Shown here piece by piece: positions 8,421 to 63,879 of a stretch of 64,000 bases of DNA. The stretch's first letter is position 1; the number at the start of each line of letters is the position of its first letter. This DNA comes from Rhizophagus irregularis. Taxonomy: Eukaryota. A model generated the notes under the pieces. That model saw only the letters and a list, made by a program, of their open reading frames with translations, made no database searches and was not told the origin of the DNA. Both the position numbers and the translations under genes were made by a program. Location of the stretch: the NCBI RefSeq assembly GCF_026210795.1, contig NC_089435.1, forward strand, positions 248,001 through 312,000. Reading direction: 5' to 3'.

Positions 8421-9368
8421 ATATATAAATTAGATACTTTTTTTTTTTTTTGTAAATCATATAAGATTAATTATATTTTATAATTCAATATTTCAATTGA
8501 ATATATTTTTATATGATGTTTTTTTTTGTAAACTGTGTTTGTATTGTGTTTGACTTTTTTTTGTGTTTGTTTGTGTATGACCTTTTTTTTTGTAAATTGT
8601 GTTTGTATTGTGTTTTTTTAAAAAACCTTTTTTAATTTTTTTTTGTAAATTTTACTTATATAGTTATTTCGGTGAACGAATAATATTTTACCGTTCAGCG
8701 CCAGTTCATGATCATCATTTGAGATACTAAATTGATGTGGTATGAAAGGTGGATTTAATCTCCTGATGCTTAAAGAATGAAGGGGTGACCTAGCCAAATT
8801 AAATATTAAACATAATGTCCGTGTAAATCGTTGACTACATTCAACGAAACTGACCACACTAAAAACGTCAAATGTTGCATCTTGAAACTTAAAATCGTTT
8901 GCATTAAAATCAATTTTCGATATTAGCTGAATCGATTCCAGTTCTCAATATGATAGATATTCAATAAGAAAATCCTGCATAAATTCTTCAACACGATGAT
9001 TCTATCCGAATTATATCAATAACTAATCATTGAACTAGAGTTAGACGCGATCTACAGTGTAACAACCTCAGTTCAAAAGAAACAGAATGACACAACATGT
9101 GTGACTGACTCCACGATCATGTGAATTTTTGAATGAGCTATTTTTTTTTTTTTTTTGATTGTTTTTTCTTGTATACGTTGTCACTGCAGTCTGCAGTGAA
9201 ACTTGTGTGGTAATATGGTAATTTTACTTGGGACCGGGTACTAACTCAAACTAAAGGAGAAGAAAAACCAAAACATATAAATACATGGTTATTATTTTAA
9301 AAAAAATTTCAAATTTTTCATCGATACAATATAAAATATAAACCAACAATTTAAAAATTATTAAAAAC

Positions 9369-9926
9369 ATGGATTATTCTAATTTACCAATGGATCAAAC
9401 TGGAAATAGCTTCATTAATAATACTAATACGATTGCTCCTGCGCCTCAAAATATTACATATGAATTTTATTTTCCTTTACCAAATAATACGCGTATTTAT
9501 CATGTTACTTATACCGAATTAAATTTAACAGAAGTCGCGCAACTCTTAAATAATAGAATTGATTTATCTCACGTTCCTGATCATCGGTTTCCATATCATC
9601 ATAATGTACAACATTCAATTCGGCAAGAAATTGTTCAACAATCTGCCGGTTATCAACAAAACTACATCCCACAACAATCTTTCGATATTCAACCTAATTT
9701 CCAAGAATATTCAGATAATAATGCTTACGATGTATCCTCAATTCCTCTTATTCAACAACCTGTTGATTATCAACAAGACGTCATTCCACAACAATCTTTC
9801 GATACTATGGATATTCAACCCACTTTCCAAGAATATTTAAATAATAATGCTAACGATGCATCTTCGGTTCCTCCAAACAGTTCTGAAGATGGATACAATG
9901 GAGTTCAATTACATCAAAATAATTAA
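9369..9926 (+). CDS. Gln/Asn-rich repeat protein of unknown function, copy 1 (185 aa, uninterrupted)
   Basis: Open ORF starting MDYSNL, with the conserved block EFYFPLPNNTRIYHVTYTELN and QQPVDYQQD/QQSFD repeats. Three other paralogs in the window; TATA-like tataaata upstream. Confidence 0.7.
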   Translation: MDYSNLPMDQTGNSFINNTNTIAPAPQNITYEFYFPLPNNTRIYHVTYTELNLTEVAQLLNNRIDLSHVPDHRFPYHHNVQHSIRQEIVQQSAGYQQNYIPQQSFDIQPNFQEYSDNNAYDVSSIPLIQQPVDYQQDVIPQQSFDTMDIQPTFQEYLNNNANDASSVPPNSSEDGYNGVQLHQNN

Positions 9927-18915: not shown

Positions 18916-19763
18916 ATGGATTATTCTAATTTATCAATAGGTCAAACTGGAAATAACTTCATTAATAATTCTAATGATATTGCTCCTGTGTCTCAAAATA
19001 ATACATTTGAATTTTATCTTCCTTTACCAAATGATACGCGTATTTACCATGTTATTTATACTGAATTAAATTCAACAGAAATCGCGCGACTCTTGAATAA
19101 TAGAATTGATTTATCTCATATTCCCAATCATCGACTTCCATATCATTATAATGTACAGTACAACATATAATTCGGCAACAAATCACCATTCCACAACAAT
19201 CTTTCGATACTATGGATGTTCAACCAATTTATCAAGAATATTCTGCTTGCGATGTATCTTTAATTCTTCCTATTCAACAACCTGTTGATTATCAACAAGA
19301 TACTATCCCACAACAATCTTTCGATACTATGGATATTCAACGTAATTTCCAAGAATATTCAGATGATAATACTAACGATGTATCTTCAATTCTTCCTATT
19401 CCTGTTGATTATAAACAAGACACCATCTCACAACAATTCTCCGATAATATAAAATTTGAATTTTATCTTCCTTTACCAAATGATGCACATGTCTATGTTA
19501 CTTATACCGAATTAAATTTAACGGAAATCGCGCAACTCTTAAATAATAGAATTGATTTATCCCACATTCCCGATCATCGACTTCCATATAATTATAAAGT
19601 ACAACATTTAATTTGTCAACAAATTGTTCAACAACCTGTTGATTATCAACAAGATGCCATCCCACAACAATCTTTCGAAGAATATTCAGATAATAGTACT
19701 AACGATGCATCTTCAGTTCCAAACAGTCCTGAAGACGGGTACAATTCAATTACATCAAAATAA
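18916..19763 (+). pseudogene. Gln-rich repeat gene, copy 2 (frameshift/stop near 19165; two conserved blocks)
   Basis: ORFs 18916-19170 and 19212-19763 are consecutive parts of one paralog. Confidence 0.75.
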
Positions 19764-20213: not shown

Positions 20214-20650
20214 TAAGGTTGCCTGCCGAAACTAAAAAGGAAATTCCGAAAGGTTTCGGCCAATCAAATCAAATGCCGAAAATGCCGAAATTAGGCCGAA
20301 ACTCGGTCTTAATTTTGGCCAAAATTAAAATTCGGCCGAAATTATGATATTGTGTCACGTGACGTTACACAAATTTCCAAAAAAGGAAATTTTGTTTCCC
20401 AGTAAAATCGGAGAAATGTGTCACACAAATGTTACATAAATTTCCATAAAAGGAAATTTACATGTCGATCATTATTCCGGCCAGAATTATAGTATTAATG
20501 TTGGCCAATAATTTCGGCCAAATTTTGGCCTTTCGGTAAAAGTTTCGGCATTGTATAATTTCGGCAAATTTACTTTTAATTGCCTAAACTTTCGGTTTTA
20601 AAAAAGTTTCGGCCTTGGCCTAAACTACTTGATTTCGGCAAGCAACCTTA
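20214..20650. mobile_element. hAT-type MITE nested in the Helitron 5' region (437 bp)
   Basis: TIRs taaggttgcctgccgaaa and tttcggcaagcaacctta; 8-bp TSD ctatggag at 20206-20213 and 20651-20658; many internal gccgaa/ttcggc motifs. Confidence 0.88.
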
Positions 20651-20677
20651 CTATGGAGTTTCTCTATAGCATGCATA

Positions 20678-23600
20678 ATGGATAATAAATTCATAAGCCG
20701 AGACACACTTCGAAAGCGTAAAGCTAGAGAGAATGAAACATCTAGTCAACGTGAAACACGCCTTGCAAAGCAACGTGAAATTACGCGGCAAAAAAGAGCA
20801 AGGGAAAATGCAAATGCTGAAGAGCGAGAGGCGCGTGATGCACGTGACAAAGAACGAAAACGCGTAAAGTTAGCAACAGAAACGGACGAACAACGTGAAA
20901 AATGTCTTAGTTACTACCGTGAACGAAGAAAATACCTGAAAAATATTCAAAATACAACGGCCCAAGACTTGAATTCGCAACAAAAAAATCCGCAGCAAAA
21001 GTATCAAGATAGTGGCGCGGACGGCGCAGAAGATGACGGCGCAGAAGATGGCGCAGACACACATACCGATGCTGGTGTACTTGGTGAATTCGAGCGAGAT
21101 TTTCTAAAGAAATTTCGTAACAAAGTTAATAAATTTAAACATTCGCTCTGCACGACGTGCAATGAAAATTTTCCATCAATTGTAATTATAAGGGGGAATG
21201 CCGATGTTGCCATAAAGAAAAGCAGCCAAAAAAATTTTCGAAAGATAACAATATGGACCCAGGCGAAGTACCTGATGAACTTCGTGATCTCACAGAAATT
21301 AAGGAAATGTTGGTTGCGCGAGTATTTCCCGTGATGTCGGTTTATAGACTTCGTGGAGGTCAGCATGGATATCGAGGAAACGTAATCAACTTTCCTCAAG
21401 ATGTCCAAGAATTTGCTTCAAAGCTTCCTAGGCATCCATCGTTATTAGATGTGCTTGTCATATGTCGTCAATCTGCGAGCAATGCGGAAGCGTTTAGGGA
21501 TTTCAAAGTTTGTCGTGATAAGGTCACTCAAGCGTTAATCTGGTTAAAACAAAATAATCGTTACTACGCTGACGTAATCATCGATCATGAAATTCTCCAG
21601 TCTCTGCCAATTGATGGCACAATTGATGACCAACTTCAAGATATTAATGAAGATATTGATTACGACGAAAGTGAGGATGACGTTATTACACGTACCTTCG
21701 TTCCACTTCCACCCTCAGCCAATCGTAAAGATACTGCTATTAGAAACACACTCGATCGAATACAAAATGAAAATCATCACATAATGTGGCCACAAATAAA
21801 TGGAAATCCTGTTAACGAATTCCAGACGTCAGGGTATATAGCATGCGCATTCCTAACCTTATACCCGACTGGAAGTGCAGACCTTCGCGCAGAACGTATT
21901 AGAGATATAAAGCCTGCCGAGTATTTCAGGTACCTTCTTCAATACAAGGACGGAAGATTTGCGCGTTATGCTCGTTGGCGGTATTTCACATTGAATTCCC
22001 AAATGCGTTGGCGGGCACTACAAGAAGGAAAGGTGTACGTTAAGCAAAATCTTACCGATGCGCAAATTACCGTTACAGATATTCAGGAAAGAATTACCCA
22101 AGGCGATAACTATATGGCCAATAGAATCATGCGATTTGGAGAAGGTTTACGTGGATCTCATCAATTTTGGTATGCTCGATGCAATGAATTAAATGATATG
22201 ATTAAGCAGATAGGACCGGATGGCTTAATCTTTTTTACGTTTAGTGCCGCCGATTTGCATTGGCCTGAGCTCCATTAGCTTATGCCATCTAACAGTAATC
22301 GTGAAACTTCAGCCAAACGCTATCACCAAAATATCGTGGATAATCCTCATATCGCGGACTGGTTTTTTCATAAGCGATTTGAAATTTTCTTTAATGACGT
22401 CTTAAAGAAACAATAGGATTTGGAAGATTGGTGGTTTAGGTTCGAATGGCAACATCGCGGCAGTGTTCACCACTGGTAAAAAAATGATTTATCCTACACA
22501 TATCTTACACATATTGGGTACTCAAAATGTAAAAAATCATACACAAATAATACACATATCATACACATATCGGGTACTAATATATATATCATACATATAT
22601 CAGGTACCTGATAGGTATACTATATATATAAATACCCGATATGTGTATGATATGTGTATTATTTGTGTATGATTTTCTACATTTTGAGTACCTGATATAT
22701 GTAAGATATATGTAGGATATGTGTAGGATAGACCATTTTTTTACCAGTGGCACGTGCATGGAATCGGAAAAAGAAAAAATGCACCTACAATAGAATGGAA
22801 GCATATGAAGGAAGATGAGAACAAAATGAATGAAATTATACAATATCTTGACAGTCTCGTTACCACAATAAATCCAGGACTCGATATGCCTGTTCCTAAA
22901 TGGCATCCGTGCCAAAAGAAAAGCAATGAATTAAATGATGACCAGCAAGACTACATCGACTTGATTAATAAATTGCAACGACATACCTGATGTAGTCCTG
23001 CGTACTGTCTTCGTATCAACCGAGAAGGACAACAAATTTGCCGGTTTAGATATCCTAAAGAAATTGTTGAAAGAACATTCGTGCAAGATGATAACAATGG
23101 ACAACCGGAGCTTGTAACGAGAAGGAACGATCAATACATAAATTCACATAGTCGACTTCAATTACAGGGTTGGAGGGCTAATGTGGATTTAAAGCCAATC
23201 CTTAGTATACATGCTGCGCTGCAATACGTTGCAAAATATGCAAGCAAAGCAGAACCGCGATCGTCAGCCTTTTCGGACGTATTAAATCGAATCCTTAGTG
23301 AAAGTCAGCCAGAAGATACGTTACTTGCTCCGGCCCAAAAGCTTTTATTACATAGTGTTGCGGAACAGGACATCTCTGCCCAAGAAACCTGCCATATTCT
23401 TCTCGGCCTTCCTCTTTACCATTCAAGTCAGCAATTTGTCTTCTTGAATCTTAACAAAGAAGCACCAAGATGGATTTGTGGTACTGGGGAAAGTGAAGAA
23501 TCTTATTCTGTTAATAATGATTCGGGGCGAACGGAGAAATCACCTTTGAAAATATATTGGGATCGACCTACCGAACTTGAAGATTTTACACTATTCCGGC

Positions 23601-25566
23601 TTTACTTGACACACAAGTTGGTTAAAGGTCGATGGAAAGAGTGTCAACAGGAAAATGTTGTGCGTGTCTTTCCACATCCATCATCCTTACGCGAGGGTCC
23701 TCAATGGGAGGAGTTTTGCCGAGTGAAGGTTCTTCTTCACGTTAGACACCGAGATCAAGATTTAACCGAAGACGGAACTATTGCATGGTCATCTTTGTAC
23801 AACGATTATATCGAAGAGATCAATGCTGATCCAATTGATCTACTTGGGTCATCTATAGACGATGAAGAAAGCGAAATAAACGATGAAGAAAAACTATTTG
23901 AAGAAGATGATAATGAACAAGACGAACATCGACCTGACTGGATGTTTCTTGCTGAGATGGGCCCAAAACCAAATTTCGATTGCTCTTTCGATCTAGGTTC
24001 ACGAGACATAGATCGGAACCATGACTGGATTAACGATCCGAGGGAACGATATACGGACCTCGTGGATATTGATACGTTTTTAAGTAGAAATCCTAAGATT
24101 GGTGAAGAAGAAAACGTATTAATGGATTATCAAACATTAAATGTTAATCAAAAAATTGTTTTCGAGCGAATAGAATCACATTATCACAATACGCTTGAGG
24201 GACGTCAAGATGAACCTTTAAGGATCATTGTGATGGGAACTGCTGGGACTGGTAAGACCTATCTAATAGAAGCAATCCAATGCAGGCTTCGAGAAATGGC
24301 AGGAGGACCTAAGTCACCTATAGCAGTGCTCGCTCCGACAGGAGTTGCAGCCTTCAACATTGAAGGTATAACGATTCATTCAGGGCTATCAATTCCGATA
24401 GTTAATGACGCAAACTGTTTTGATATAAGCGGAGAACGGCTGAAGCAACTACAAGATAAATTAAAAGATGTAAGTTACGTAATAATTGACAAGAAGAGTA
24501 TGGTTGGTCGTCGAATGCTTGCTATAATTGATAAGCGGCTCCGACAAGCTTTTCCTGAACATAATAACGAACCATTTGGTGGCAGGTCGATTATTTTGTT
24601 CGGTGACTTCGGCCAACTTCCACCTGTCCTTGATCTTCCTATGTATGCTGATACAAAACGAGGTTCATTATCTAATAGTGGTATTGTGGCATACAAGCAG
24701 TTCAAAGAAGCGTATAAGCTTGAAATTGCACAGCGCCAATCCAGAAATTCTAAAGAGCAACAAAACTTTAGAAATATTCTCTTAAGACTGCGTAATGGAG
24801 AATCTACTATAGATGATTGGAAAATTCTTACCACACGAATTGAAGACAAGCTCAGTATAATAGAACGTAGTAGATTCTCTGACGCTTTGTTCATTCTAAC
24901 AAAGTGGTCCGAAGTCAACGCGGTAAATATAGATCGACTTCGATCTTTGGATGCTCCTGTTGCCAAAATCCAAGCTATACATACAGGTGGAAAAGAAGCT
25001 AAAAAAGCTGACTCAGATACAGCGCATGGTCTCGGAGCATATATATTGCTGGCGAGAGGCGCAAGAGTCATGTTAACGGCAAACTTACAGACAGACGCTG
25101 GGCTAGTCAATGGTTCAATGGGAACTGTCCAAGACATAATATTCAAAGAAGATCAGGGTCCCCCTTCACTCCCTATTGCGGTCTTGATCTCTTTCGATAA
25201 TTATAAAGGTCCCACCATTACTAGCTTAGAGGGTAAAAGAGTTGTACCAATTGTACCAATTAGACGTACCTGGAATGGTAAATCTGGAGCTCCTTGTTCG
25301 CGCTTACAAATTCCAGTTCGTCTTGCGTGGGCAATTACGGTGCATAAAAGTCAGGGTCTTACATTACAAAAGGCTACAATAGACCTTGGTGATAAAGAGT
25401 TTATCGCAGGTCTTGCTTTTGTGGCAGTGTCTCGGGTACGCGCCCTTGAAGATCTTCTCTTCAAACCGTTCAATTTCGAGAGACTTTAGCGTATTAAAGA
25501 ATGCACAAGATTAAAAGAAAGATTAGCCGAAGAGAAACGTTTAGTTTCCATGATGCCAGGAAACTG
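20678..25566 (+). pseudogene. Helitron Rep (HUH endonuclease)-PIF1 helicase fusion, disrupted
   Basis: Rep motifs FFTFSAAD, EWQHRGSVH|VH and YVAKYASK. PIF1 motifs GTAGTGKT, APTGVAA, FGDFGQLPPV, GLVNGSMG, RLQIPVRLAWAITVHKSQGLTL and VAVSRV. Frameshift near 21190; stops at 22276, 22414, 22988 and 25487. Confidence 0.93.
22471..22749. mobile_element. CACTA-type MITE (279 bp), copy 1
   Basis: TIRs cactggtaaaaaaatg and catttttttaccagtg; largely palindromic; cac duplicated (with 1 extra nt); near-identical to 44290-44568. Confidence 0.9.
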
Positions 25567-38275: not shown

Positions 38276-39285
38276 TCAATTGTTTCAATTGTTTCATGAT
38301 TTTTTTTGTGAATTTTAAAATATGAGAGAATTTTTTCGAAAGAAACTTCGTTCCGAATTTCCGAATGGCAAAGTAGATAGGATAAAAGTATGACGTAGAA
38401 CCGATGATTAGTTACATCTTTTTTCCTTATATATCAAGAAAATATCACACAACATGATTAAGTAACTAAAAGAGCGGATTGTGAACCTTTTTTTTGTTTT
38501 TCACGTTTTACCAAGATTATCAAATTTGTAATAATAAATAGGATTACTTGTACGGCACAAAGTAAGAACAAATGTAATAACAATCAATGATCATTATGTT
38601 ATAACAATCGTCTGTACACGCCTTTAAATATATTATGCACCGTATCTGTTTTAAAAAGGATCGTTATTTGATATACTAATAAGGTTATGAAAGAGGTCCG
38701 AATGCTTAACGAAAGTAATAATGTACAGTACGTACAAATCGTTATTGATCATATTCGACGAAGATTTAACTATCCATAAACTAAAAACAGCAAATTAATG
38801 AATTTAACAGTTACTTTTAATGGTAAGATATTTAAGGAAATTTTGTATCATATGGGATCACTTGATGATCGACATTCCGATGTCAAATCCACTTCTTCGA
38901 TGTAATGATTAATTGTTTATGACAATCAACTATCATACTTAAATAACTACCAATTCAACTCAATGAAACAATTAAACTTGGCTGGGTTAATCACGATATA
39001 CTTTGTTACGTGAAAATATGAAAATATCATATGATATTAAATAATTTACCTGCAACTAATTAATTGTAATTTTACATAGGTGATCAACTTTATACGTTAC
39101 GCAAACAAAATAAAAGTGAAAAAGAAACCCACCCCAAATATAAATAAATACATGACCCCATTCTTTTCTTTTTTAAAAAAAATTTGAAATTCTCATAAAT
39201 ATACATTATAAACTAACGGTATTTTAAAAATTGTTAGAAACTGAATTCAGATAACCGTGTCACACAAGGTTATTCTAATTTACCA

Positions 39286-40207
39286 ATGAATCAAACTAAC
39301 TTCGGCATACCTTCAATTATTGACAATAATAATAAAAACTTTCAATACGCTTCAAACTCTGATCCGAATTCAGATACTTCGAATATTAATAACATTAATA
39401 CAACTGCTCCTGCACTTCAAAATTTTACATATGAATTTTATCTTCCTTTACCAAATGATACACGTATTTATCATGTTACTTATACCGAATTAAATTTAAT
39501 AGAAATCGCGCTACTCTTGAATAATAGAATTGATTTATCTCACATTCCCAACCATCGACTTCCGTACCATTATAATGTACAACGTTTAATTAGGCAAGAA
39601 ATTATTCAACAATCTGTTGGCTATCAACAAAACACCATCCCATGACAATCTTTTGATACTATTGATATTCAACCAATTTTCCAAGAGCATCCAGACGACA
39701 ATGCTTACGATGTATCTTCAATTCCTTTTATTCAACAATCTCTCGAATATCAACAAGAAGCCGTCCCACAACAATCTTTTGATAATATAAAATTTGAATT
39801 TTATCTTCCTTTACCAAATGATGTATATATCTATCATGTTACTTATACCGAATTAAATTTAACAGAAATCACGCAACTCTTAAATAATAGAATTGATTTA
39901 TCCTACATTCCTGATCATCGAATCCCATATCATTATAATGTACAACATTTAATTTGGCAACAAATTGTTCGACAACCTGAACCTAATTTTCAAGAATATT
40001 CAGATAATAGTGCTTACGATATATCTCCCATTCAACAACCTGTTGATTATCAACAAGATACCACCTACAACAATCTTTCGATGTTATATAGATATTCAAC
40101 CACTTTTCCAAGAATATTCAAATAATAATACTAACGATGCATCTTCAGTTCCTCCAAACAGTCCTGAAGATGGATACAATGGAGTTCAATCACATCAAAA
40201 TAACTAA
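39286..40207 (+). pseudogene. Gln-rich repeat gene, copy 3 (original start altered, stop at 39643, later frameshifts)
   Basis: Two EFYLPLPND..YHVTYTELN blocks and the family C-terminus PPNSPEDGYNGVQSHQNN. Confidence 0.75.
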
Positions 40208-44289: not shown

Positions 44290-44568
44290 CACTAGTAAAA
44301 AAATGATTTATCCTACACATATCTTACACATATTGGGTACTCAAAATGTAGAAAATCATACATAAATAATACACATATCATACACATATCGGGTACTAAT
44401 ATATATATCATACATATATCAGGTACCTGATAGGTATACTATATATATAAATACCCGATATGTGTATGATATGTGTATTATTTGTGTATGATTTTCTACA
44501 TTTTGAGTACCTGATATATGTAAGATATGTGTAGGATATGTGTAGGATAGACCATTTTTTTACCAGTG
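44290..44568. mobile_element. CACTA-type MITE (279 bp), copy 2
   Basis: Starts CACTA and ends ccagtg; perfect 3-bp TSD gta. Confidence 0.92.
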
Positions 44569-46203: not shown

Positions 46204-49200
46204 TTAATTTTCATCTGTTTCAATAATTATATAAATAAATTAATTTTCATATAAATAATTTGCAAGATTAATTCTTTTATATATCATAGTACATACCTAG
46301 TGACCCTAAATCCTTAATTATATAATCATTCAAATCTTCACTTACTAGCATTTCATTTGTTTTTACACTAGCTCGTGAATCTTCACTTTCAAGAATTTCA
46401 TTCAATTTTTTACTAGTAAAACCAAGTAAGCGACTTTTATAACATGCTTGTGGATGTGATTCGGTAATAAGATTGTTATACTGCCCAATTGGCGCATTTA
46501 TAAATTCCACAATATTGCTTTTTAATTCTTCATTAGTTTGATCATCATCAGGATGGAAAATCCATTTTTCAATAGTTTTTAATACTTCTTTAGAAGATGG
46601 TCTTTTTGATGAATCTTCATTCCAACATTCTTTCATTAAATCTACATAACATTGTGGAGTATTTTCGATAATTTCAGGACGTTCACCTTTACAAATACTG
46701 AAACTAAGTTGAATATCATGTGCTCTATTATTAAATGGTGGTACCCCAGATGTAAGTTCCCACATAATCATAGAAAAACTATATATATCACTAGCTGGAG
46801 TATAAGATTTGCCTCTTAAAACTTCAGGAGCCATAAATGGCACTACACCATAAATATCATACTTTTTCAAAAATGATTTTACAGGTTGACATAATCCTAA
46901 ATCACTAATATAAATTTTATCACTATACACATCATCATTATGATTTAAAATATTACCATCATGAAAATCACAATGAATAAGATTTTTTTCATGTATATCA
47001 CTAAGTCCAGAAATAATTTCGTACAACATATATAATTTTTGATTCCAATTATTTTTGACTATTCTTGTTAAATTTTCTCTTAAATTGCCTTTATTTGCAT
47101 ACTCCATTACTACCATATATTTTGAAGTATTTGGATCTTCTGTGAATCCATAAACATCTATAATATCACTTGAAGCTGAAACACTTGTATGATATTCCCA
47201 CTATAAATAATAATAATAATTTATTAATATAAATAAATTTTAATTTAAATTAAAAATAGAAAATAATATACTATCATACTTCTTTTAAAAATTCATTTAA
47301 ATTTTCATTTAAATTCTTGTGGCATTTAAGAATTACTTGATTCTTTAACCAAGTAGCTTTATATATAGTACCAAATCCTCCTTCATTAAGATATTCAACA
47401 CTTTCAAATTTGTTATAAGGAATCCATCTTAATTCTTTTTCAAGAATAAAATTATCTATAACTGTATTTCCACTTTTCCCAAATCTATAAATTTAAATAA
47501 TTAAAATTATATATAGATATTATAGATTGTATTATAATTTACACAAAATAAATTATTACTTACTCTAAAATTTAAATATGAATTTAATGTAATACAATAT
47601 AAGTCTTAATTTTTGGATAAATATATACAATAACCTATAATTTACAACTTACCAACTAAAGTAACAGATGTTTTTCAAATGGAAGAATTCAGTTAACAAA
47701 TAAATATTATATAAATATATAATGATACATATACTTACAAGCTAGATCATAAATAATTTTTTTTTAATAAAGAAATTAGTTAGTTTAAATTATATGTAAA
47801 TGTTATAACAATAAGTAATAATAGAATTAAATAAATAACTTATAACTTACGATCTATTTAAATAAAGAAATTAGGTAGTTTAAATTATATGTAAATATTA
47901 TAACAATAAGTAATAATAGAATTAAATAAATAACTTACTCCCTATATTATTTAATAATTTTTTAAATAAAGAAATTAGTTAGTTTAAATTATATGTAAAT
48001 ATTATAACAATAAGTAATAATAGAATTAAATAAATAACTTACTCCCTATATTATTTAATAATTTTTTAAATAAAGAAATTAGTTAGTTTAAATTATATGT
48101 AAATGTTATAACAATAAGTAATAATAGAATTAAATAAATAACTTACACCCTATATTATTTAATAATTTTTTAAATAAAGAAATTAGTTAGTTTAAATTAT
48201 ATGTAAATATTATAACAATAAGTAATAATAGAATTAAATAAATAACTTACCATCTATAAAATAATTTTTTAAATAAAGAAATTAGTTAGTTTAAATTATA
48301 TGTAAATATTATAACAATAAGTAATAATAGAATTAAATAAATAACTTACGAGCTATATTATTTAATAATTTTTTAAATAAAGAAATTAGTTAGTTTAAAT
48401 TATATGTAAATATTAAAACAATAAGTAATAATAGAATTAAATAAATAACTTACTCCCTATATTATTTAATAATTTTTTAAATAAAGAAATTAGTTGTTTA
48501 AATTATATGTAAATATTATAACAATAAGTAATAATAGAATTAAATAAATAACTTACTCCCTATATTATTTAATAATTTTTTAAATAAAGAAATTAGTTAG
48601 TTTAAATTATATGTAAATGTTATAACAATAAGTAATAATAGAATTAAATAAATAACTTACGAACTATATTATTTAATAATTTTTTAAATAAAGAAATTAG
48701 TTAGTTTAAATTATATGTAAATATTATAACAATAAGTAATAATAGAATTAAATAAATAACTTACGAACTATATTATTTAATAATTTTTTAAATAAAGAAA
48801 TTAGTTAGTTTAAATTATATGTAAATATTATAACAATAAGTAATAATAGAATTAAATAAATAACTTACGAACTATATTATTTAATAATTTTTTAAATAAA
48901 GAAATTAGTTAGTTTAAATTATATGTAAATATTATAACAATAAGTAATAATAGAATTAAATAAATAACTTACTCCCTATATTATTTAATAATTTTTTAAA
49001 TAAAGAAATTAGTTAGTTTAAATTATATGTAAATGTTATAACAATAAGTAATAATAGAATTAAATAAATAACTTACACCCTATATTATTTAATAATTTTT
49101 TAAATAAAGAAATTAGTTAGTTTAAATTATATGTAAATATTATAACAATAAGTAATAATAGAATTAAATAAATAACTTACCATCTATAAAATAATTTTTT

Positions 49201-50277
49201 AAATAAAGAAATTAGTTAGTTTAAATTATATGTAAATATTATAACAATAAGTAATAATAGAATTAAATAAATAACTTACTCCCTATATTATTTAATAATT
49301 TTTTAAATAAAGAAATTAGTTAGTTTAAATTATATGTAAATGTTATAACAATAAGTAATAATAGAATTAAATAAATAACTTACGAGCTATATTATTTAAT
49401 AATTTTTTAAATAAAGAAATTAGTTAGTTTAAATTATATGTAAATATTATAACAATAAGTAATAATAGAATTAAATAAATAACTTACCATCTATAAAATA
49501 ATTTTTTAAATAAAGAAATTAGTTAGTTTAAATTATATGTAAATATTATAACAATAAGTAATAATAGAATTAAATAAATAACTTACTCCCTATATTATTT
49601 AATAATTTTTTAAACAAAGAAATTAGTTAGTTTAAATTATATGTAAATGTTATAACAATAAGTAATAATAGAATTAAATAAATAACTTACTCCCTATATT
49701 ATTTAATAATTTTTTAAATAAAGAAATTAGTTAGTTTAAATTATATGTAAATATTATAACAATAAGTAATAATAGAATTAAATAAATAACTTACGAGCTA
49801 TATTATTTAATAATTTTTTAAATAAAGAAATTAGTTAGTTTAAATTATATGTAAATATTATAACAAATAAGTAATAATAGAATTAAATAAATAACTTACC
49901 ATCTATAAAATAATTTTTTAAATAAAGAAATTAGTTAGTTTAAATTATATGTAAATATTATAATGATAAGTAATAATATAATTAAATAAATATCTTACCA
50001 TCTATAAAATAAATTTTTAAATAATGAAATTAGTTAAATTATATAAATAATATAAATATAGATATCATATAACTTACACCCTGTAGTATTATTAATTATT
50101 AATTTGTTAGATATAAAGATAATATAAAAGTATTTACTGTAAATTATATATATTACTTACAATCTAGTTATTTAAATTAAGAATATAATTAGTTGAATAA
50201 TGTAAAATATTGAATTGTTTATAAATAAAAACTTAATATTTCAGCTTGTTTGATATACCTTTAATATGTTGGTCCAT
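46204..50277 (-). CDS. TKL-like Ser/Thr(Tyr) kinase with a micro-exon-encoded N-terminus. Predicted 31 exons, ~405 aa: 50277-50259; 26 x 3-nt exons from 50163-50161 down to 47655-47653; 1-nt exon 47564; 47484-47280; 47200-46297; 46214-46204
   Basis: Kinase motifs GGFGTIYKA, VILK, HCDFHDGN, DLG, PFMAPE and DIYSF are intact. All predicted introns are GT..AG and 76-109 nt. The spliced frame is open: MDQHIKDWYDARRNARNGWILLRRTHGWRNPFEFGKSGNTVIDNFI... Kinase identity is certain; micro-exon usage is predicted. Confidence 0.8.
47742..50040 (-). repeat. Tandem array of ~22 near-identical units, mostly 99-105 bp; each unit is one intron plus a variable 3-nt exon
   Basis: Plus-strand unit: acttac[NNN]cta...aaagaaattagttagtttaaattatatgtaaat(a/g)ttataacaataagtaataatagaattaaataaata. 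NNN is tcc, acc, cat, gag, gaa or gat. Confidence 0.95.
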
Positions 50278-54590: not shown

Positions 54591-56891
54591 AAAAATGTTG
54601 CGAAACATTTTTTTATTAAATTATCTATTAAAAATATTTCGCATTTTTATTAAACTTTTTAAGAAAAATTCATGCGAATTTTTCTTCAACCTGTCAGGTC
54701 AGGTTCAGAGTTCTGGAACCTGTAAAATTATAAATTAATTAAATAAATTAAATTAAACATATTTGGTTTATTCAGCTGATAGATAGATTTTAAAACAAAA
54801 AAAAAAAGAAATGAAATTTCTTTATAAATATGAGTATTGATGAAAGAAAACTTTGAAATTGAATAGATACTATTTTACCTCTTAATCCTAAATTATAGTC
54901 ATCTAATTTTTCTCTTGTTTATTAAAAATTAATGCACAATTAAATGGCTACGGAAAAGCCCAAATCGCAATTTTACTCTAATGATTACACTATTCAATTC
55001 AGCATTCAGTTCCTTTAATATTAAGTATTAATATAAATTAAATTAAATATATATAAATATATATAATTCTGATCCATAATTTGATAATGAACAAGGGCGA
55101 TCATTTTTTGGAAAAATTTACCGGAATCAAAATGATCAGCAAAATTTTAAATCATAGTGATAGTAAAAAAAATGATCGACAAACCACATATTTAATTAGT
55201 AAACGGAAATGCCCGGTGACTGTTATTTAATATATAAATTATCTTGATTTATATTAGGTATTCCGTTTATGGAAGTTACGGAGTTTTTGTTTCATTGATA
55301 ATTATTAGAAATTAGAGATGTGCATGTACAACAGTACATGGCAAAACGTCCAACAATCGTTTAATGCCAGAATATTCAAATATACTTAAAAAGGATCGTC
55401 ATTTGTCGTTTGAGAATTTCTGAATGTAAAATAACCATAATTTGTCGTAGTCAGTCAAAAGAGACCGTCATATTATACATTAAATAAAATTGCATATTGA
55501 TTACATTTTTCTTCTTGATATCTTGTGCAATGTTGAAAGCAATGTGAGTAATTAGCGAAAAAAAATTATTAAGTTCATTTCTGACTGATCGGATTTTTGA
55601 TCAGGGTTTGAGTTAATAATTATTAATTATTATAAAGCTAAACAAGATCATGTCGTTTTTAACTTACTGATATTTTTTAGATAGATTATTATTGCAGATA
55701 TTTTTGACGCATTACGTCATTTGGGTTAAATATCACATATATAGTTTATTTATTATTTTTATATGGAATACAGTTATTGAGATCAATAGAGAATGTTCCA
55801 TTACCTTCTTGGGTGACAAAATTATGCAACTTGATCAATTACATATCCACAAAAAAGTAGAATTTTTGATCGCAATTTAAAAATAAGCAAAAATGAACGT
55901 GTTAATTGTTATTGTTGAAAATTATTTTAATAACATTTTTTGACCGGTTAAACCAATTTTGCGATCAAAATCCTAACAATTATGCAGAAATTGATAGGCA
56001 TAGTATCGCAAAAATTTTACTTTTAAACATATAGGGTTGTAAAATTACATTTTAGGTTGTGTAACTTAATTAATATACAGTAAGTGCTATGTTAAATTTT
56101 ATAGTATTTACAATTTTACATATTTTTCAAATTTTTAAAAAAATTGTCAAAGAATTTTTAATTAGTCCAAGAATTAAGTAGAATATCTCAACAGCTAGTA
56201 ATCAGTAATTCAAAATCATGCCAAATTTTTATACATTATAAATTTAGTTTCATTCTATAAAATATAAAAAATTTTGTTCAATTTGAATCGTTAATTTATA
56301 ACAAGAAATATTATCAATCGCTACACAAAGTATAGTGGGACAATGGAACGATTTGGGAATGAACAGATCATATGATTAATAATTTTGTTTATTTTATTTA
56401 ATTACATACTATATGTATTCAATCTAGGGAAAATAGTTTTTACCAATATATCTGGGATTTCTGGAAAATCATGCGAAACTTTCATTATGTTGATCAACTC
56501 GGTCATCTACTTATAGCGCAGTTTGTAAAACAATCAATCGAACCTTTCATAATGTTGATCAATCTTGCCATGTTTGGTTAACTAAAAACGCCTATCATAC
56601 TAAATATGTATATAACTTGCTTTTTTAGATAATAGGAGGAAAAACTTTAAAGCGGTGACGTTAATTTATTTCTCAGTATGCATAATCTGCATCATGCCGG
56701 CAAAATAATTTATACAAGATGAAAACTAATCCAAATGTGACGTTTAGACGTTACACAACTTTATATATTATCTTGTATATACATAAAGAGAAAAGAAAAA
56801 AGATATATATAAATACGTTGTTATTTTTTCTTTGAAATTTTCACCAGTACACACACAGTATAAACCCAACAATTTAAAAATTATTAGAAAC

Positions 56892-57879
56892 ATGGATTAT
56901 TCTAATTTATCAATGGGTCAAATTAGAAATAACTTCATTAATAATTCTAATGCAATTGCTCCTGCGCCTCAAAATATTACATTTGAATTTTATCTTCCTT
57001 TACCAAATAATACACGTATCTACCATGTTACTTATACTGAATTAAATTCAACGGAAATCGCGCGACTCTTGAATAATAGAATTGATTTATCTCATATTCC
57101 AAATCATCGACTTCCATATCATTATAATGTACAACATTTAATTCGGCAACAAATCACAATCTTTCGATACTATGAATGTTCAACCGATTTACCAAGAATA
57201 TTCGGATAATAATGCTTTCGATTTATCTTTAATTCTTCCTATTCAACAATCTGTTGATTATCAACAAGATGCTATCCCACAACAATCTTTCGATACTATG
57301 GATATTCAACGTAATTTCCAAGAATATTCAGATGATAATGCTGACGATGTATCTTCAATTCTTCCTATTCCTTTTGATTATAAACAAGAAACCACTTCAC
57401 AACAATCTTCCGACAATATAAAATTTGAATTTTATCTTCCTTTACCAAATGATGCACATGTCTATCATGTTACTTATGCCGAATTAAATTCAAAAGAAAT
57501 CGCGCAACTCTTAAATAATAAAATTGATTTATCCCACATACCCGATCATCAACTTCCATATCATAATAATGTACAACATTTAATTTGGCAACAAATTATT
57601 CAACAGCCTGTTGATTATCAACAACAAGATGCTATCCCACAACAATCTTTCGATACTATGTTCCAAGAATATTCAGATAATAGTTCTTACGATATATCTC
57701 CTATTCAACAACCTGTTGATTATCAACAAGACACCACTCTACAACAATCTTTCGATACTATAGATATTCAACCCATTTTCCAAGAATATTCAAATAATAA
57801 TGCTAACGATGCATCTTCAGTTCCCCCAAACAGTCCTGAAGATGGATACAATGGAATTCAATCACATCAAAATAACTAA
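56892..57879 (+). pseudogene. Gln-rich repeat gene, copy 4 (single frameshift near 57155)
   Basis: The ORF from MDYSNL (56892) and the 57172-57879 ORF are consecutive parts of one paralog; two conserved blocks. Confidence 0.75.
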
Positions 57880-60848: not shown

Positions 60849-63346
60849 CTAATTTCTTATGCGTTTTCCTATTTTAAATTAAATAAATAAATAAATAAAA
60901 ATATAAACAACAAATAGTGAAAACATTTAATCAAATAATACTGTATATTTACCATTATTTTCATAAGAATTAATATTTAATTCTTCAATATTTCGTTTAG
61001 TTCCAAGTACGTTGAGTTCACTAATAATATAAAATCGTATTTTATTGATTTTTGAATTGTTTGAAATTAAATTATAAATAATAAATATTTTTAACTTTAA
61101 ATACCTTTCAATACCTATGCCTAATTCGAATTCTTTTGAAATATAATCTATAAGGAAAAAAATTTTTAATTTATTTATTCAAAGATGACTAATAATAGTA
61201 TTACGGTATAGTACATACCATTTGATGAAAAATTGATAGATGAACAATTAGTAAATATAGATGAACATTTAGAAATGTAAGAATTTAATGATCTACTTGT
61301 ATAAATAGCTTTTGGATGAGGCTTTTCACTAAACTTGGAACCAAGCTTCTTCGAAACTATTAAATTTTTCCTTTTTAATTCAGCTTGGTTAAATTGATCA
61401 TGATAGTATTTGAGAGGTTCATCATAATTATGACAACGCCATGTTTCACAAGTATAATAAATTTCTTTTATAGAAGGTCTTTTTTTTGGATCAGAATCCC
61501 AACAACTTTTCATTATATTAGCATAACATTCTGGTGTATCTTCTGTAATTTCAGGTCTTACACCATCCATAATATTAAAAATAAGAATATGATCATGTTC
61601 AATATTAGCAAAAGGCTTACAACCTGTTGTAAGTTCCCACATGATCATACCCAAACTATAAATATCAGATTCTTTAGAATATACAGACCCTTTAAATATT
61701 TCTGGTGCAATATAAGGTATCACTCCATAAATTTCGTTATCCGATGAGGTATCATTTGCAGGTCGTGATAATCCTAGATCTCCGATTTTAATTTTAGCTG
61801 GATAATCTACCAATATATTTCCACTATGAAAATCTCGATGTATAAACTTTGCATTGTGAATAGTCCGGAGTCTAAAATAAAATAATTAATAAATTTGCAT
61901 TATGAATTAATCATTTACCAATATATTTAAAATATGATTACCCAAATGTGATTTGAAATAAAATAATTATTTTCTGTTGCCAATTAATTTTTGTAAAATT
62001 CTTTTGTAAATACTTATGTAAATCTCCATTCTGCGCATATTGCATAACTAGTATATAATCGTCTAATTTTGGATCCTTTGTAAAACCATGGGTTTTAATA
62101 ATAGTTTCATAACTTCCATAATGATGATTTATCTTTAACTATTAATTCCCAAGATTAATAAGATTAAAATTAAAATATTTTTAATGAATATCAAATAAAA
62201 ATAATTACGAATTGTTGACGTATTTACCTCATTCATAAAATATTTTTCAGCAAATTGAGAGTTTTTAAACCTTTTTAAAATGACAATGTTATCTCTAGTC
62301 AAAAAACGATAAATATTCTTATTTGAACCATTTAACCGAGTTGCTTGATATACAATACTAAACCCTCCTTTTGTTATTTCTTTTACATTTGTAAATTGAG
62401 AATATGGTATATATCTCATTAATAGTCCTTTAAAATTATCGCAAATAGAAATACAACACATCTCGAATGGAACGAAATATTCATCAATACTTTTTACATT
62501 GTTAGCAAAATTAGCTATTTCCAATTGATATGATCTTATGCTAACAAGAAAATCATCTAAAACACTATCTCCACTGTTAATACCAATCATCTTTGTGATA
62601 TCAAAAGTAATAGTTGATACTCTCTTGCATTTTTTACATTGCGATTGATTTGTATATCCAAAAATAACATTTGTTGTTAAACAAAATCTACATCCAATAA
62701 AAAATATGAAACAATTTTCACAATACTTTTGACAGTTAGATGTTAATATTAATTCTTCAAAACAAAAACAACTAAATCTATTTTCCCACCATGGTAAATA
62801 AATAATTGAAATAGGCTTTTTAGTTAAGGTTGATTCTATATATCCAATAGAGATTAGATAACAATTTGAACATAATTTAAATTCCGTTATAATGTTATGA
62901 TCTGTTCCTTGATATAATAATTTTCCGCATAGTTTACAATATTTTTCACTTTCGAACACGTTTTTGTATATGGGAATTTTTTTCGATTCCGAAGTGTAAC
63001 TACGTATTTGTTTAAAAACTAATATTGTCAAGCAATTTCTACAGCATTCTTGAATATTTCGTGATACTTTTGTTCCATTTATTTCATGTTCACTACATTC
63101 TAAGTCCTCTGCAAATAAATATACGTCCAAGTATATATTATTATCTGTTATTTTAGTTAAATAACATGATAAGCATTTTTTGCAATATTTTTGCTCATAA
63201 ATTAACGTTTTTGTATATACTCCTCCACAATGAAAACAATATTCATCTCTCAAATTAAATGAAACGAAAAAAATCGGTACGGGACTAGATTTTAATTTTG
63301 GTGTTGGATCAAAAGAATTTTCATCATTTACATTTATAAGATCCAT
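60849..63346 (-). CDS. TKL-like kinase with a long Cys-rich (multi-CxxC) N-terminus; exons 63346-62228, 62138-61942, 61871-61219, 61147-61105, 61020-60953, 60868-60849
   Basis: Motifs GGFSIVYQA, VILK, HRDFHSGN, GDLG, PYIAPE and DIYSLG. Five GT-AG introns keep the frame to GKRIRN*. Confidence 0.88.
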
Positions 63347-63879
63347 TTTATTATGTTTTCCATATAAGCAAGTATTGAAAATTCGATATATTTATAGTTT
63401 TTCAAATCCTTAAATGATGAATATCTGAATAAATATAGAATTTTCTATCAGTGAATTCTCCAGAAAATTCGGTTCGTATTTATTTTTGGAAGTACTTTAT
63501 CTAAGGGTATAATAAATGCATAATGTTAATGATGCTGATCTGTTGATCTACATGCCTAACTCTACCAATTGAAAGGAGAAGAACAAAACAAGGGGGGGAT
63601 GTTTCTATTTTAAGAATTTCATTGAAAAATATTTTTCCTTTACGTTTTGTATATTAAAATAAAATATATAGTTTGACTTCTATCCGTGATTACTAACTAA
63701 ATTGTTGCTGATCGTATTTTAATTTTTGTGCGATCTGTCTGTCGTGTAAAACATTAAACATTTGAACCATCATTTTGATTTTTTAAAGAAAAATTTCCTT
63801 ATATGTCCAAATACACGATCTATTATTGTTAAAGAAAATAGCAAGTTAAAATAAATTTGTGGTAATTTAAATATTATTA

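What the first reader, a model, noticed from the sequence alone, without database searches (positions are those of the whole stretch)
47485..50277. A tandem 'satellite' that reads as an array of 26 three-nucleotide micro-exons building a kinase N-terminus
Seen: on the minus strand every unit reads AG|NNN|GTAAG, with a CTAAC branch-point consensus about 35-40 nt upstream of the AG. The main variable site of the repeat is exactly the 3 nt between acceptor and donor. Exons in transcript order (lowest plus-strand coordinate): ATT 50161, GGT 50078, ATG 49999, ATG 49900, CTC 49795, GGA 49691, GGA 49587, ATG 49488, CTC 49384, GGA 49280, ATG 49181, GGT 49077, GGA 48973, TTC 48869, TTC 48765, TTC 48661, GGA 48557, GGA 48454, CTC 48350, ATG 48251, GGT 48147, GGA 48043, GGA 47939, ATC 47851, CTT 47739, TTG 47653. 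They lie between a 19-nt ATG exon (50277-50259) and the first kinase exon (47484), which has no start codon of its own. Joined, they give MDQHIK-DWYDARRNARNGWILLRRTHGWRNPFE-FGKSGN with no stop. Inference: about 2.8 kb of DNA encodes about 33 residues, one codon per intron. This may be a diversity-generating module on a receptor/sensor-like kinase. It is conceptually like schistosome micro-exon genes, but I know of no description of it in fungal kinases. Standard gene predictors and read aligners would miss it.
Basis: partly seen in the sequence, partly recalled or inferred. Interest (0 to 1): 0.97.

Follow-up and report, generated by a model that had tools for sequence, protein, structure and literature searches.

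The report
Kinase head built from one-codon exons
In the root-symbiotic fungus Rhizophagus, the front of a protein kinase gene is cut into 26 three-base pieces and one single base separated by short introns; a spliced, probably RNA-derived sequence shows the last ten pieces joined in order, related kinases carry different arrays of such pieces, and the layout likely lets this large enzyme family vary a short, possibly partner-recognising segment very fast.

Summary
Confirmed, and it is spliced. All 26 AG|NNN|GTAAG units are present; a 1-nt exon at 47564 is also needed for frame. The gene is a Rhizophagus irregularis TKL-type kinase. A spliced contig of a probably-RNA run, identical to exon 2 over 78 nt, continues with 30 of 30 shown letters equal to the predicted join; poly(A) reads, mostly from paralogs, show the same junction with other triplets. 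Thirteen distinct soil-metagenome kinase loci carry such arrays, also phase 1, so each codon straddles two exons. Triplets differ far more than their introns (0.65 versus 0.014 per site) and turn over between 95-98% identical paralogs: likely DNA-level shuffling under selection. Not shown: splicing of the first 16 triplets, exon skipping, any function; three long soil arrays break when fully included. Closest precedent: codon-sized mini-exons of Tuber nank NLR genes; no AM-fungal description found. This scan saw one-codon exon arrays on kinases in other genomes before (e1-7136646, e1-7450022, e1-7450023).

The parts
50259..50277 (-). Exon 1 coding part (19 nt, ATG start, phase-1 donor GTATAT); 5' UTR extent unknown
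   Evidence: Sequence; resembles the start and end of the longer first exons in paralog models such as P0028, P0139. Its junction to the array was not seen in RNA.
47485..50258 (-). Whole array: 28 introns of 76-109 nt enclosing 26 three-nt exons and one 1-nt exon (79 coding nt, about 27 residues)
50078..50163 (-). First two micro-exons (50161-50163, 50078-50080) with diverged introns; predicted to give Asp-Trp, the same two residues that open the array of soil locus L009
   Evidence: splicing inferred
47857..50036 (-). Homogenised core, period about 104 nt, 21 copies, 95% matches; holds micro-exons 3-23 (lowest coordinates 49999, 49900, 49795, 49691, 49587, 49488, 49384, 49280, 49181, 49077, 48973, 48869, 48765, 48661, 48557, 48454, 48350, 48251, 48147, 48043, 47939)
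   Evidence: order of exons 17-23 matches the spliced contig; exons 3-16 inferred
47653..47853 (-). Last three triplet exons (47851-47853, 47739-47741, 47653-47655); the last two recur in paralog reads
   Evidence: L002 also ends with the same last triplet and the 1-nt exon
47564..47564 (-). One-nucleotide exon (AG|A|GTAAGT), required for frame
   Evidence: first loose letter in all three listed loose ends at 47484; also present in L001-L004
47280..47484 (-). First large kinase exon (FGKSGN helix, Gly-rich loop, VILK lysine)
   Evidence: depth, loose ends at 47484, joint 47200/47280
47201..47279 (-). Ordinary 79-nt intron, used as the splicing control
   Evidence: Skipped by 43 reads of X23, 47 of X24 and one X6 contig (reads include paralogs)
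46297..47200 (-). Main kinase exon (HCDFHDGN, DLG, APE motifs)
   Evidence: 3' end inferred from protein P0001 and the donor seen
46204..46214 (-). Short last coding exon with the stop codon
   Evidence: Inferred from the C-terminus of P0001 and the sequence; not tested with RNA

Best explanation
The repeat is a chain of real introns around one-codon exons: the last ten pieces and a single-base exon are joined in order in a spliced, probably RNA-derived contig, the whole chain is predicted to write about 27 residues in front of the kinase, and these residues likely form a fast-changing, possibly partner-recognising segment that is probably reshuffled in the DNA and kept variable by selection. 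Step by step: (1) SHOWN for the 3' part: the ~100-nt introns are removed and the 3-nt and 1-nt exons are kept. (2) INFERRED: the usual transcript includes all 26 triplets after exon 1, giving a ~405-aa TKL kinase. (3) SHOWN by sequence: all introns of the triplet run are phase 1, so every residue depends on two neighbouring exons, and a small set of triplets yields many residues when units change neighbours (18 different residues reachable from this array). (4) INFERRED: near-identical introns act as recombination handles; unequal crossing-over or conversion duplicates, deletes and reorders 'intron + downstream triplet' cassettes, so paralogs acquire different Arg/Asn/Trp/Ile/Lys/Tyr-rich segments without frameshifts. 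(5) INFERRED: selection keeps triplets different while introns homogenise. (6) GUESS: the segment, which sits where non-array relatives carry a CxxC...WCxxC motif, sets binding or regulatory specificity in a hugely expanded kinase family, for example in nonself sensing. Exon skipping may add variants but is taken as secondary.
For:: X6 record 7 (184 nt, depth 11) matches 47407-47484 with 0 differences and has a 106-nt loose end whose 30 shown letters equal the first 30 letters of the predicted join printed (compared by eye), not the genomic letters; 106 nt fits 98 coding nt plus 8 nt of UTR. X6 contigs skip the control intron and have zero depth in intron bins. Poly(A) runs X23 and X24: 51 of 276 and 58 of 338 laid reads have loose ends at exactly 47484; both consensus strings start with the same 7 letters as the predicted join and continue in triplet register with other triplets; depth upstream in the introns is at most 1; of 51 loci, 14 AT-rich ones (13 distinct; L017 repeats L016) have 2-28 such sites upstream of the kinase exon; of 146 parsed small exons (27 from the window, 119 from 13 other loci) 142 are 3 nt, 3 are 1 nt, 1 is 2 nt. 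With an anchor that ignores splice sites, 98 of 118 units are followed by AG-NNN-GT. Phase: 12 of 13 soil loci have a YAG acceptor in phase 1 at the matching place (the 13th has AAG in the same phase); L009 gives a complete open model, two upstream exons ending in phase 1 plus 8 triplets. Stops at junctions: phase 1, 2 of 118 against 5.5 +/- 1.8 in shuffles (P = 0.04); phase 2, 16 against 16.3. Triplet versus intron difference per site: window core 0.654 vs 0.014; 94 soil units 0.641 vs 0.156; nearest neighbours by intron 0.635 vs 0.067. The 20 nt before the acceptor are more alike for same-triplet than for different-triplet pairs in 8 of 8 loci, and more so than the 20 nt after the donor. L007, L008, L011, L013 are 95-98% identical over 150 nt of kinase exon but differ in triplet order.
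Against: No RNA evidence for triplets 1-16 or the exon 1 junction. X6 is only guessed to be RNA, and the match rests on one contig of one run; because triplets repeat, the 30 letters can also be parsed as a skipping product. Most X23/X24 reads come from paralogs (30 of 276 and 23 of 338 are 99% or more alike), so they do not test this locus. Three long soil arrays break on full inclusion (L006: one stop and a mid-array 1-nt exon; L010: one stop; L016: a 2-nt exon) although the kinase parts held are open: this points to skipping, decay or assembly error. Stop avoidance is weak (P = 0.04, one of four tests). Same-triplet pairs are few in most loci (1-47). Recombination is inferred from pattern, with no strain comparison of this locus. 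No data on the protein, on a partner or on function.
Confidence: 0.55

Rival explanations
1. Splice-level diversifier, as reported for Tuber nank genes: each gene yields many isoforms by skipping 3-nt exons; frame is kept and every skip also changes the residue at the new junction.
For: All triplet exons are frame-neutral; this array allows about 6.3 million distinct triplet subsequences, and no skip between two of its triplets makes a stop (only three T-ending triplets joined directly to the 1-nt exon do). Three soil arrays are not open on full inclusion. Loose-end consensus agreement in raw reads is only 0.73-0.78. Precedent in Tuber.
Against: The one locus-specific contig runs unbroken for 106 nt upstream and fits full inclusion in order and length (contigs drop rare forms). 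The low agreement is expected from mixed paralogs. In soil arrays shuffled order would give about 5.5 stops in 93 junctions against 2 seen, which suggests genomic order matters.
Confidence: 0.25
2. Neutral or selfish intron multiplication: an intron-plus-3-nt unit amplified in a tolerant linker; 3 nt is simply the spacing that keeps frame, and the peptide has no specific role.
For: The intron unit is homologous across loci (shared donor and TTTAAAY/CTAAT core in 107 and 89 of 118 introns); array length varies widely; some arrays look decayed and two carry small inverted-repeat insertions; AM fungal genomes hold thousands of kinases (PMC10234402, passage seen).
Against: A neutral tandem array should homogenise its 3 exon bases like its 100 intron bases; instead triplets are about 45-fold more different than introns in the window core and about 9-fold among nearest soil neighbours. 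Conserved ends (Asp-Trp start shared with L009; last triplets and 1-nt exon shared by paralogs) and weak stop avoidance point to selection on the product.
Confidence: 0.15
3. Non-coding satellite inside one long intron, removal of the units with loss of the 3 nt (recursive splicing), or an assembly artefact.
For: TRF sees an ordinary 104-nt tandem repeat; the database model of the gene uses almost none of it; the 5' two thirds are untested with RNA.
Against: The triplets are retained, in genomic order, in the spliced contig; arrays with diverged, indel-rich introns keep AG-NNN-GT in independent soil assemblies.
Confidence: 0.05

Closest known systems
Codon-sized mini-exons of Tuber melanosporum nank (NACHT-ankyrin NLR) genes (Iotti et al. 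2012; not held; known here only from passages in PMC4986451, PMC10197012, PMC13449251)
   Same: Tens of 3-bp exons in an expanded fungal gene family of a root symbiont; proposed to diversify a sensing region.
   Different: Here the host is a TKL kinase without NACHT or ankyrin domains, in Glomeromycotina rather than Ascomycota; the array is N-terminal, built of tandem, partly near-identical intron-exon units, phase 1, and ends with a 1-nt exon in this subfamily; evidence here favours DNA-level turnover, while alternative splicing is what is reported for Tuber. Phase and intron similarity in Tuber could not be checked.
Schistosoma mansoni micro-exon genes (MEGs; bioRxiv 10.1101/2023.06.21.545858, abstract and passages seen)
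   Same: Runs of very short exons, mostly multiples of 3, missed by automatic annotation.
   Different: MEG exons are 3/6-81 bp, mostly 15 bp, with introns of 0.1-5 kb and a signal peptide for secretion; here exons are 3 nt, introns about 100 nt, and the array is a small part of a kinase with no evident signal peptide.
Expanded tyrosine kinase-like (TKL) kinases of Rhizophagus irregularis (PMC4219462 and PMC10234402, passages seen); nearest solved relatives CTR1, TAK1, MLK/ZAK, RIPK1/4, IRAK4 and one EGFR entry
   Same: The host gene is a member by Pfam and by sequence.
   Different: Micro-exon arrays are not mentioned in the passages seen; database models misread them.
Earlier notes of this scan: e1-7136646 (single-codon exons between a kinase and a HET domain), e1-7450022 and e1-7450023 (29 three-nt exons behind a kinase), e1-9904360 (split codons in a fungal kinase-LRR)
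   Same: One-codon or split-codon exon runs on fungal-type kinases.
   Different: Unchecked AI notes on other genomes; position (linker or tail) and lineage differ; homology with this array was not tested.

Membership tests
Tuber nank-type codon-sized mini-exon genes | Tens of consecutive 3-bp exons | tested here: met
   26 in the window, up to 28 sites in L010; retention shown for the last ten
Tuber nank-type codon-sized mini-exon genes | Host gene is a NACHT-ankyrin NLR | tested here: not met
   Pfam finds only kinase-related families at or near cut-off in P0001; the open frame is about 405 aa
Tuber nank-type codon-sized mini-exon genes | Extensive alternative splicing of the mini-exons | tested here: inconclusive
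   One locus-specific contig fits full inclusion; raw reads are mixed paralogs shown only as a consensus
Tuber nank-type codon-sized mini-exon genes | Expanded, variable paralog family | tested here: met
   1134 homologues at E <= 1e-30; 13 distinct array-bearing soil loci with different arrays
Schistosome micro-exon genes (MEG) | Very short exons in multiples of 3 | tested here: met
   142 of 146 parsed small exons are 3 nt
Schistosome micro-exon genes (MEG) | Long introns (0.1-5 kb, longest in the middle) | tested here: not met
   Introns 76-109 nt, uniform
Schistosome micro-exon genes (MEG) | N-terminal signal peptide, secreted product | tested here: not met
   Predicted N-terminus is charged, without a long hydrophobic run (by inspection; no predictor was run)
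TKL-group protein kinases | Best Pfam match PK_Tyr_Ser-Thr and nearest solved relatives in the TKL group | tested here: met
   PF07714 144 bits against PF00069 137; CTR1, TAK1, MLK, RIPK, IRAK among the best hits. No tree was built.
TKL-group protein kinases | Catalytic motifs intact (Lys of subdomain II, catalytic Asp and Asn, DxG, APE) | tested here: met
   VILK, HCDFHDGN, DLG, APE in P0001 (motif roles recalled); activity not tested
Recursive-splicing ratchet points | Acceptor directly followed by donor, no bases left in the mRNA (feature recalled) | tested here: not met
   Three bases lie between AG and GT and are retained in the spliced contig
Non-coding satellite DNA | Unit homogenised along its length and absent from mRNA | tested here: not met
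   Triplets escape homogenisation and appear in the spliced contig

The most novel reading that the evidence does not exclude
AM fungi run an undescribed receptor-repertoire generator: many of their expanded TKL kinases carry a hypervariable N-terminal recognition segment written one split codon per intron, reshuffled by recombination between near-identical introns (perhaps between coexisting nuclei) and further varied by exon skipping, for nonself or partner recognition; current gene models hide it.
Probability: 0.3. Interest if true: 0.92.

Novelty: new variant of a known kind. Interest (0 to 1): 0.74.

Why it matters
R. irregularis is the model AM fungus and holds about 2,500 kinase genes of largely unknown use (2,533 in PMC10234402, passage seen). 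A family-wide, fast-changing segment in front of many of them gives a concrete, testable handle on what the expansion is for and on how a long-clonal fungus makes protein diversity. It is also an extreme splicing substrate, 27 consecutive exons of 3 nt or less in a culturable organism with public RNA data, useful for asking how such exons are defined and ordered. Practically, the N-termini of these kinases appear wrong in databases: 10 of the 120 listed homologues have an [ML]SK[FS]G junction like the one that contradicts for this gene, and 5 have Gly/Ile/Met/Leu-rich heads that look like triplets read in the wrong frame (inferred, their DNA was not seen).

Tried and rejected
Searches for transcript-derived full N-termini among proteins found none; a few gene models (P0044, P0058, P0178) have heads that look like phase-1 readings, but they are predictions. 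Reading the triplets as codons (frame 0) was rejected: out of phase with exon 1 and the kinase exon, and L010 has TGA triplets. Phase 2 was rejected (16 stops in 118 junctions). The 5-nt reading of the 47564 site implied by database model P0001 was rejected by the loose ends. Rows dropped before counts: five hits of 4-6 nt (L009, L010, L012) were removed as likely intron-internal matches, L017 was left out as a duplicate of L016, L001, L003, L004 and L015 were not used, and chains were split at gaps outside 60-125 nt; L050 (2 sites, 60% GC) was not counted as an array. No structure was predicted, because the spliced product is not a contiguous translation of the window. A look-up of earlier findings by sequence and by place gave nothing relevant. 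Literature: searches 'microexons'+'Rhizophagus' (2 unrelated papers), 'micro-exons'+'Rhizophagus irregularis'+'Glomeromycotina' (0 occurrences of micro-exons in the 20 listed of 374), searches found no description in AM fungi; the library lacks most subscription papers, and supplements were not searched.
Full report
OBSERVATION. The stricter pattern YAGNNNGTAAGT has 26 matches in the window, 25 in the array, against 0.52 expected. Introns are 76-109 nt; 21 of 26 contain CTAAC 30-42 nt from the end. A further, single-base exon at 47564 is needed: exon 1 (19 nt) plus the triplets alone is out of frame with the kinase; with it the frame is open for 408 codons, to the first stop inside what is probably the last intron.

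HOST GENE. The main exon is 100% identical over 98% of its length to P0001, named a kinase-like protein of Rhizophagus irregularis; 1134 proteins match at E <= 1e-30, and the named ones among the 120 listed are all Rhizophagus. Pfam's best family is PK_Tyr_Ser-Thr; the nearest solved structures include CTR1, TAK1, MLK, RIPK and IRAK4. Catalytic motifs are intact by inspection. TKL genes are expanded in this fungus (PMC4219462, passage; 2,533 kinases in PMC10234402, passage).

SPLICING TEST. Four runs were laid on 46950-47693. Run X6 (contigs, RNA guessed) behaves as spliced: a contig skips the control intron 47201-47279 and intron bins have zero depth. Its record 7 (184 nt, depth 11) matches 47407-47484 without a difference and has 106 further letters that do not fit the genome. 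The 30 letters shown equal the first 30 of the join predicted: the 1-nt exon, nine whole triplets and two bases of a tenth, in genomic order. Full inclusion predicts 98 coding bases upstream, so 106 fits with 8 bases of UTR; this is consistent, not proof, and since triplets repeat, a skipping product could give the same 30 letters. In the two poly(A) runs, 51 of 276 and 58 of 338 laid reads break off at exactly 47484. Their consensus starts with the same seven letters and goes on in triplet register with other triplets (agreement 0.73 and 0.78). Most of these reads carry paralog variants (30 and 23 are 99% or more alike), so they show that paralogs with the same layout are expressed; they do not resolve isoforms of this locus. 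X7 shows no listed loose end at 47484 (10 rows were not shown). All three listed loose ends contradict the database model, whose MSK- start would need a 5-nt exon at 47564 (inferred from the sequence).

FAMILY. One scan of metagenome contigs returned 51 loci. Four close relatives (L001-L004, 55-82% identical) keep the 1-nt exon. Fourteen AT-rich loci, 13 distinct, have 2-28 AG-NNN-GT sites upstream of the kinase exon; most are 42-50% identical to the query, and the kinase of L009 has its best named matches in Funneliformis (59%) and Rhizophagus (51-55%), so it belongs to an unidentified AM-fungus-like lineage. Their introns are homologous to the window's but diverged and rich in indels, yet 142 of 146 parsed small exons (window included) are 3 nt (drops listed under Tried and rejected), and 98 of 118 units found by an intron-internal anchor are followed by AG-NNN-GT. 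In 12 of 13 soil loci a YAG acceptor in phase 1 opens the first large exon; L009 yields a complete open model whose array also begins with Asp-Trp. Relatives without arrays (L014, L020, L022, L025) have a CxxC...WCxxC motif at the same place, before FQxNFxxWTSGN, so the array appears to stand where that motif stood.

WHAT VARIES. Because introns are phase 1, each residue is made of the last base of one exon and the first two of the next. The 118 junction codons give Arg 18, Asn 15, Trp 14, Ile 12, Lys 12, Tyr 8 and 12 rarer residues, plus 2 stops, against 5.5 +/- 1.8 stops after shuffling (P = 0.04); phase 2 shows no avoidance. Triplets differ far more than introns: 0.654 against 0.014 per site in 20 core units of the window, 0.641 against 0.156 in 94 soil units, 0.635 against 0.067 for nearest neighbours chosen by intron. 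A triplet travels with the intron end before it (in the window all five ATG exons follow a short intron type). Four soil paralogs that are 95-98% identical over 150 nt of kinase exon have different triplet orders. The array ends are more conserved than the middle.

AGAINST. No RNA covers exon 1 or triplets 1-16. L006, L010 and L016 are not open on full inclusion, though the kinase parts held are open; L024 and L015 look broken in the kinase exon itself. Nothing here tests protein, partner or function.

MECHANISM. Best reading (0.55): a mostly constitutively spliced, split-codon cassette array that recombination between near-identical introns reshuffles and selection keeps variable, writing a short basic and aromatic specificity segment on a TKL kinase. 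Splicing of the 3' part and the phase are shown; full inclusion, recombination and selection are inferred; the recognition role is a guess. Rivals: splice-level diversification (0.25; not exclusive), neutral intron multiplication (0.15), non-coding repeat or artefact (0.05).

WHAT IS KNOWN. [quoted passage not shown] 2012; original not held). This works like that system in exon size and family expansion but is not a member: no NACHT or ankyrin domain, another phylum, skipping unproven. Schistosome MEGs differ in exon and intron size and in secretion (bioRxiv 10.1101/2023.06.21.545858, abstract and passages). Searches (listings and abstract starts only, apart from the papers named) found no description in AM fungi; subscription papers and supplements were not covered. 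Earlier notes of this scan describe one-codon exon runs on kinases in other genomes; they are unchecked and are not counted as support.

VERDICT. Real, expressed in spliced form at least in its 3' part, family-wide, misannotated, and apparently undescribed in AM fungi; a new variant of a known kind. Interest 0.74.

Noticed in passing
Proteins P0006, P0021, P0035, P0052, P0094, P0055: Database models of paralogs with Gly/Ile/Met/Leu-rich heads of about 20-48 residues, which look like micro-exon triplets read as codons in the wrong frame; they suggest arrays of about that many units in R. irregularis and R. diaphanus. Their DNA was not seen.
   Followed up: partly
L016:1428-1650 (same in L017) and L010:1470-1734: Insertions of roughly 170-190 nt bounded by inverted repeats inside array introns (seen by eye), like small non-autonomous transposons; the flanking splice sites are intact.
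   Followed up: no
Proteins P0021, P0025, P0028, P0046, P0058, P0062, P0139: Paralog first exons encode acidic Glu/Ser/Gly-rich repeats, some starting MGQ-; the window's exon 1 looks like a short deletion form. An acidic head next to a basic, aromatic array segment may matter; a lipidation signal at MGQC is a recalled possibility, untested.
   Followed up: no
window 61175-63391, minus strand: A second kinase gene with a long Cys-rich N-terminal region and no micro-exon array.
   Followed up: no
window 20633-25489, plus strand: Long ORFs with a P-loop helicase-like motif in a 38% GC island, resembling a Helitron-type element (label recalled, not tested).
   Followed up: no
window 9342-9926, 19152-19763, 39238-40125, 56787-57879, plus strand: Four related Gln/Pro/Asp-rich ORF regions with an internally repeated FEFYLPLPN-type module, a local gene family of unknown kind.
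   Followed up: no
window 22548-22730 and 44367-44549: The same pair of short tandem repeats occurs twice, suggesting two copies of one mobile element end.
   Followed up: no
L009:1129-1284: A 156-nt array intron that looks like two fused units whose middle acceptor-exon-donor was lost: a possible snapshot of micro-exon loss.
   Followed up: no
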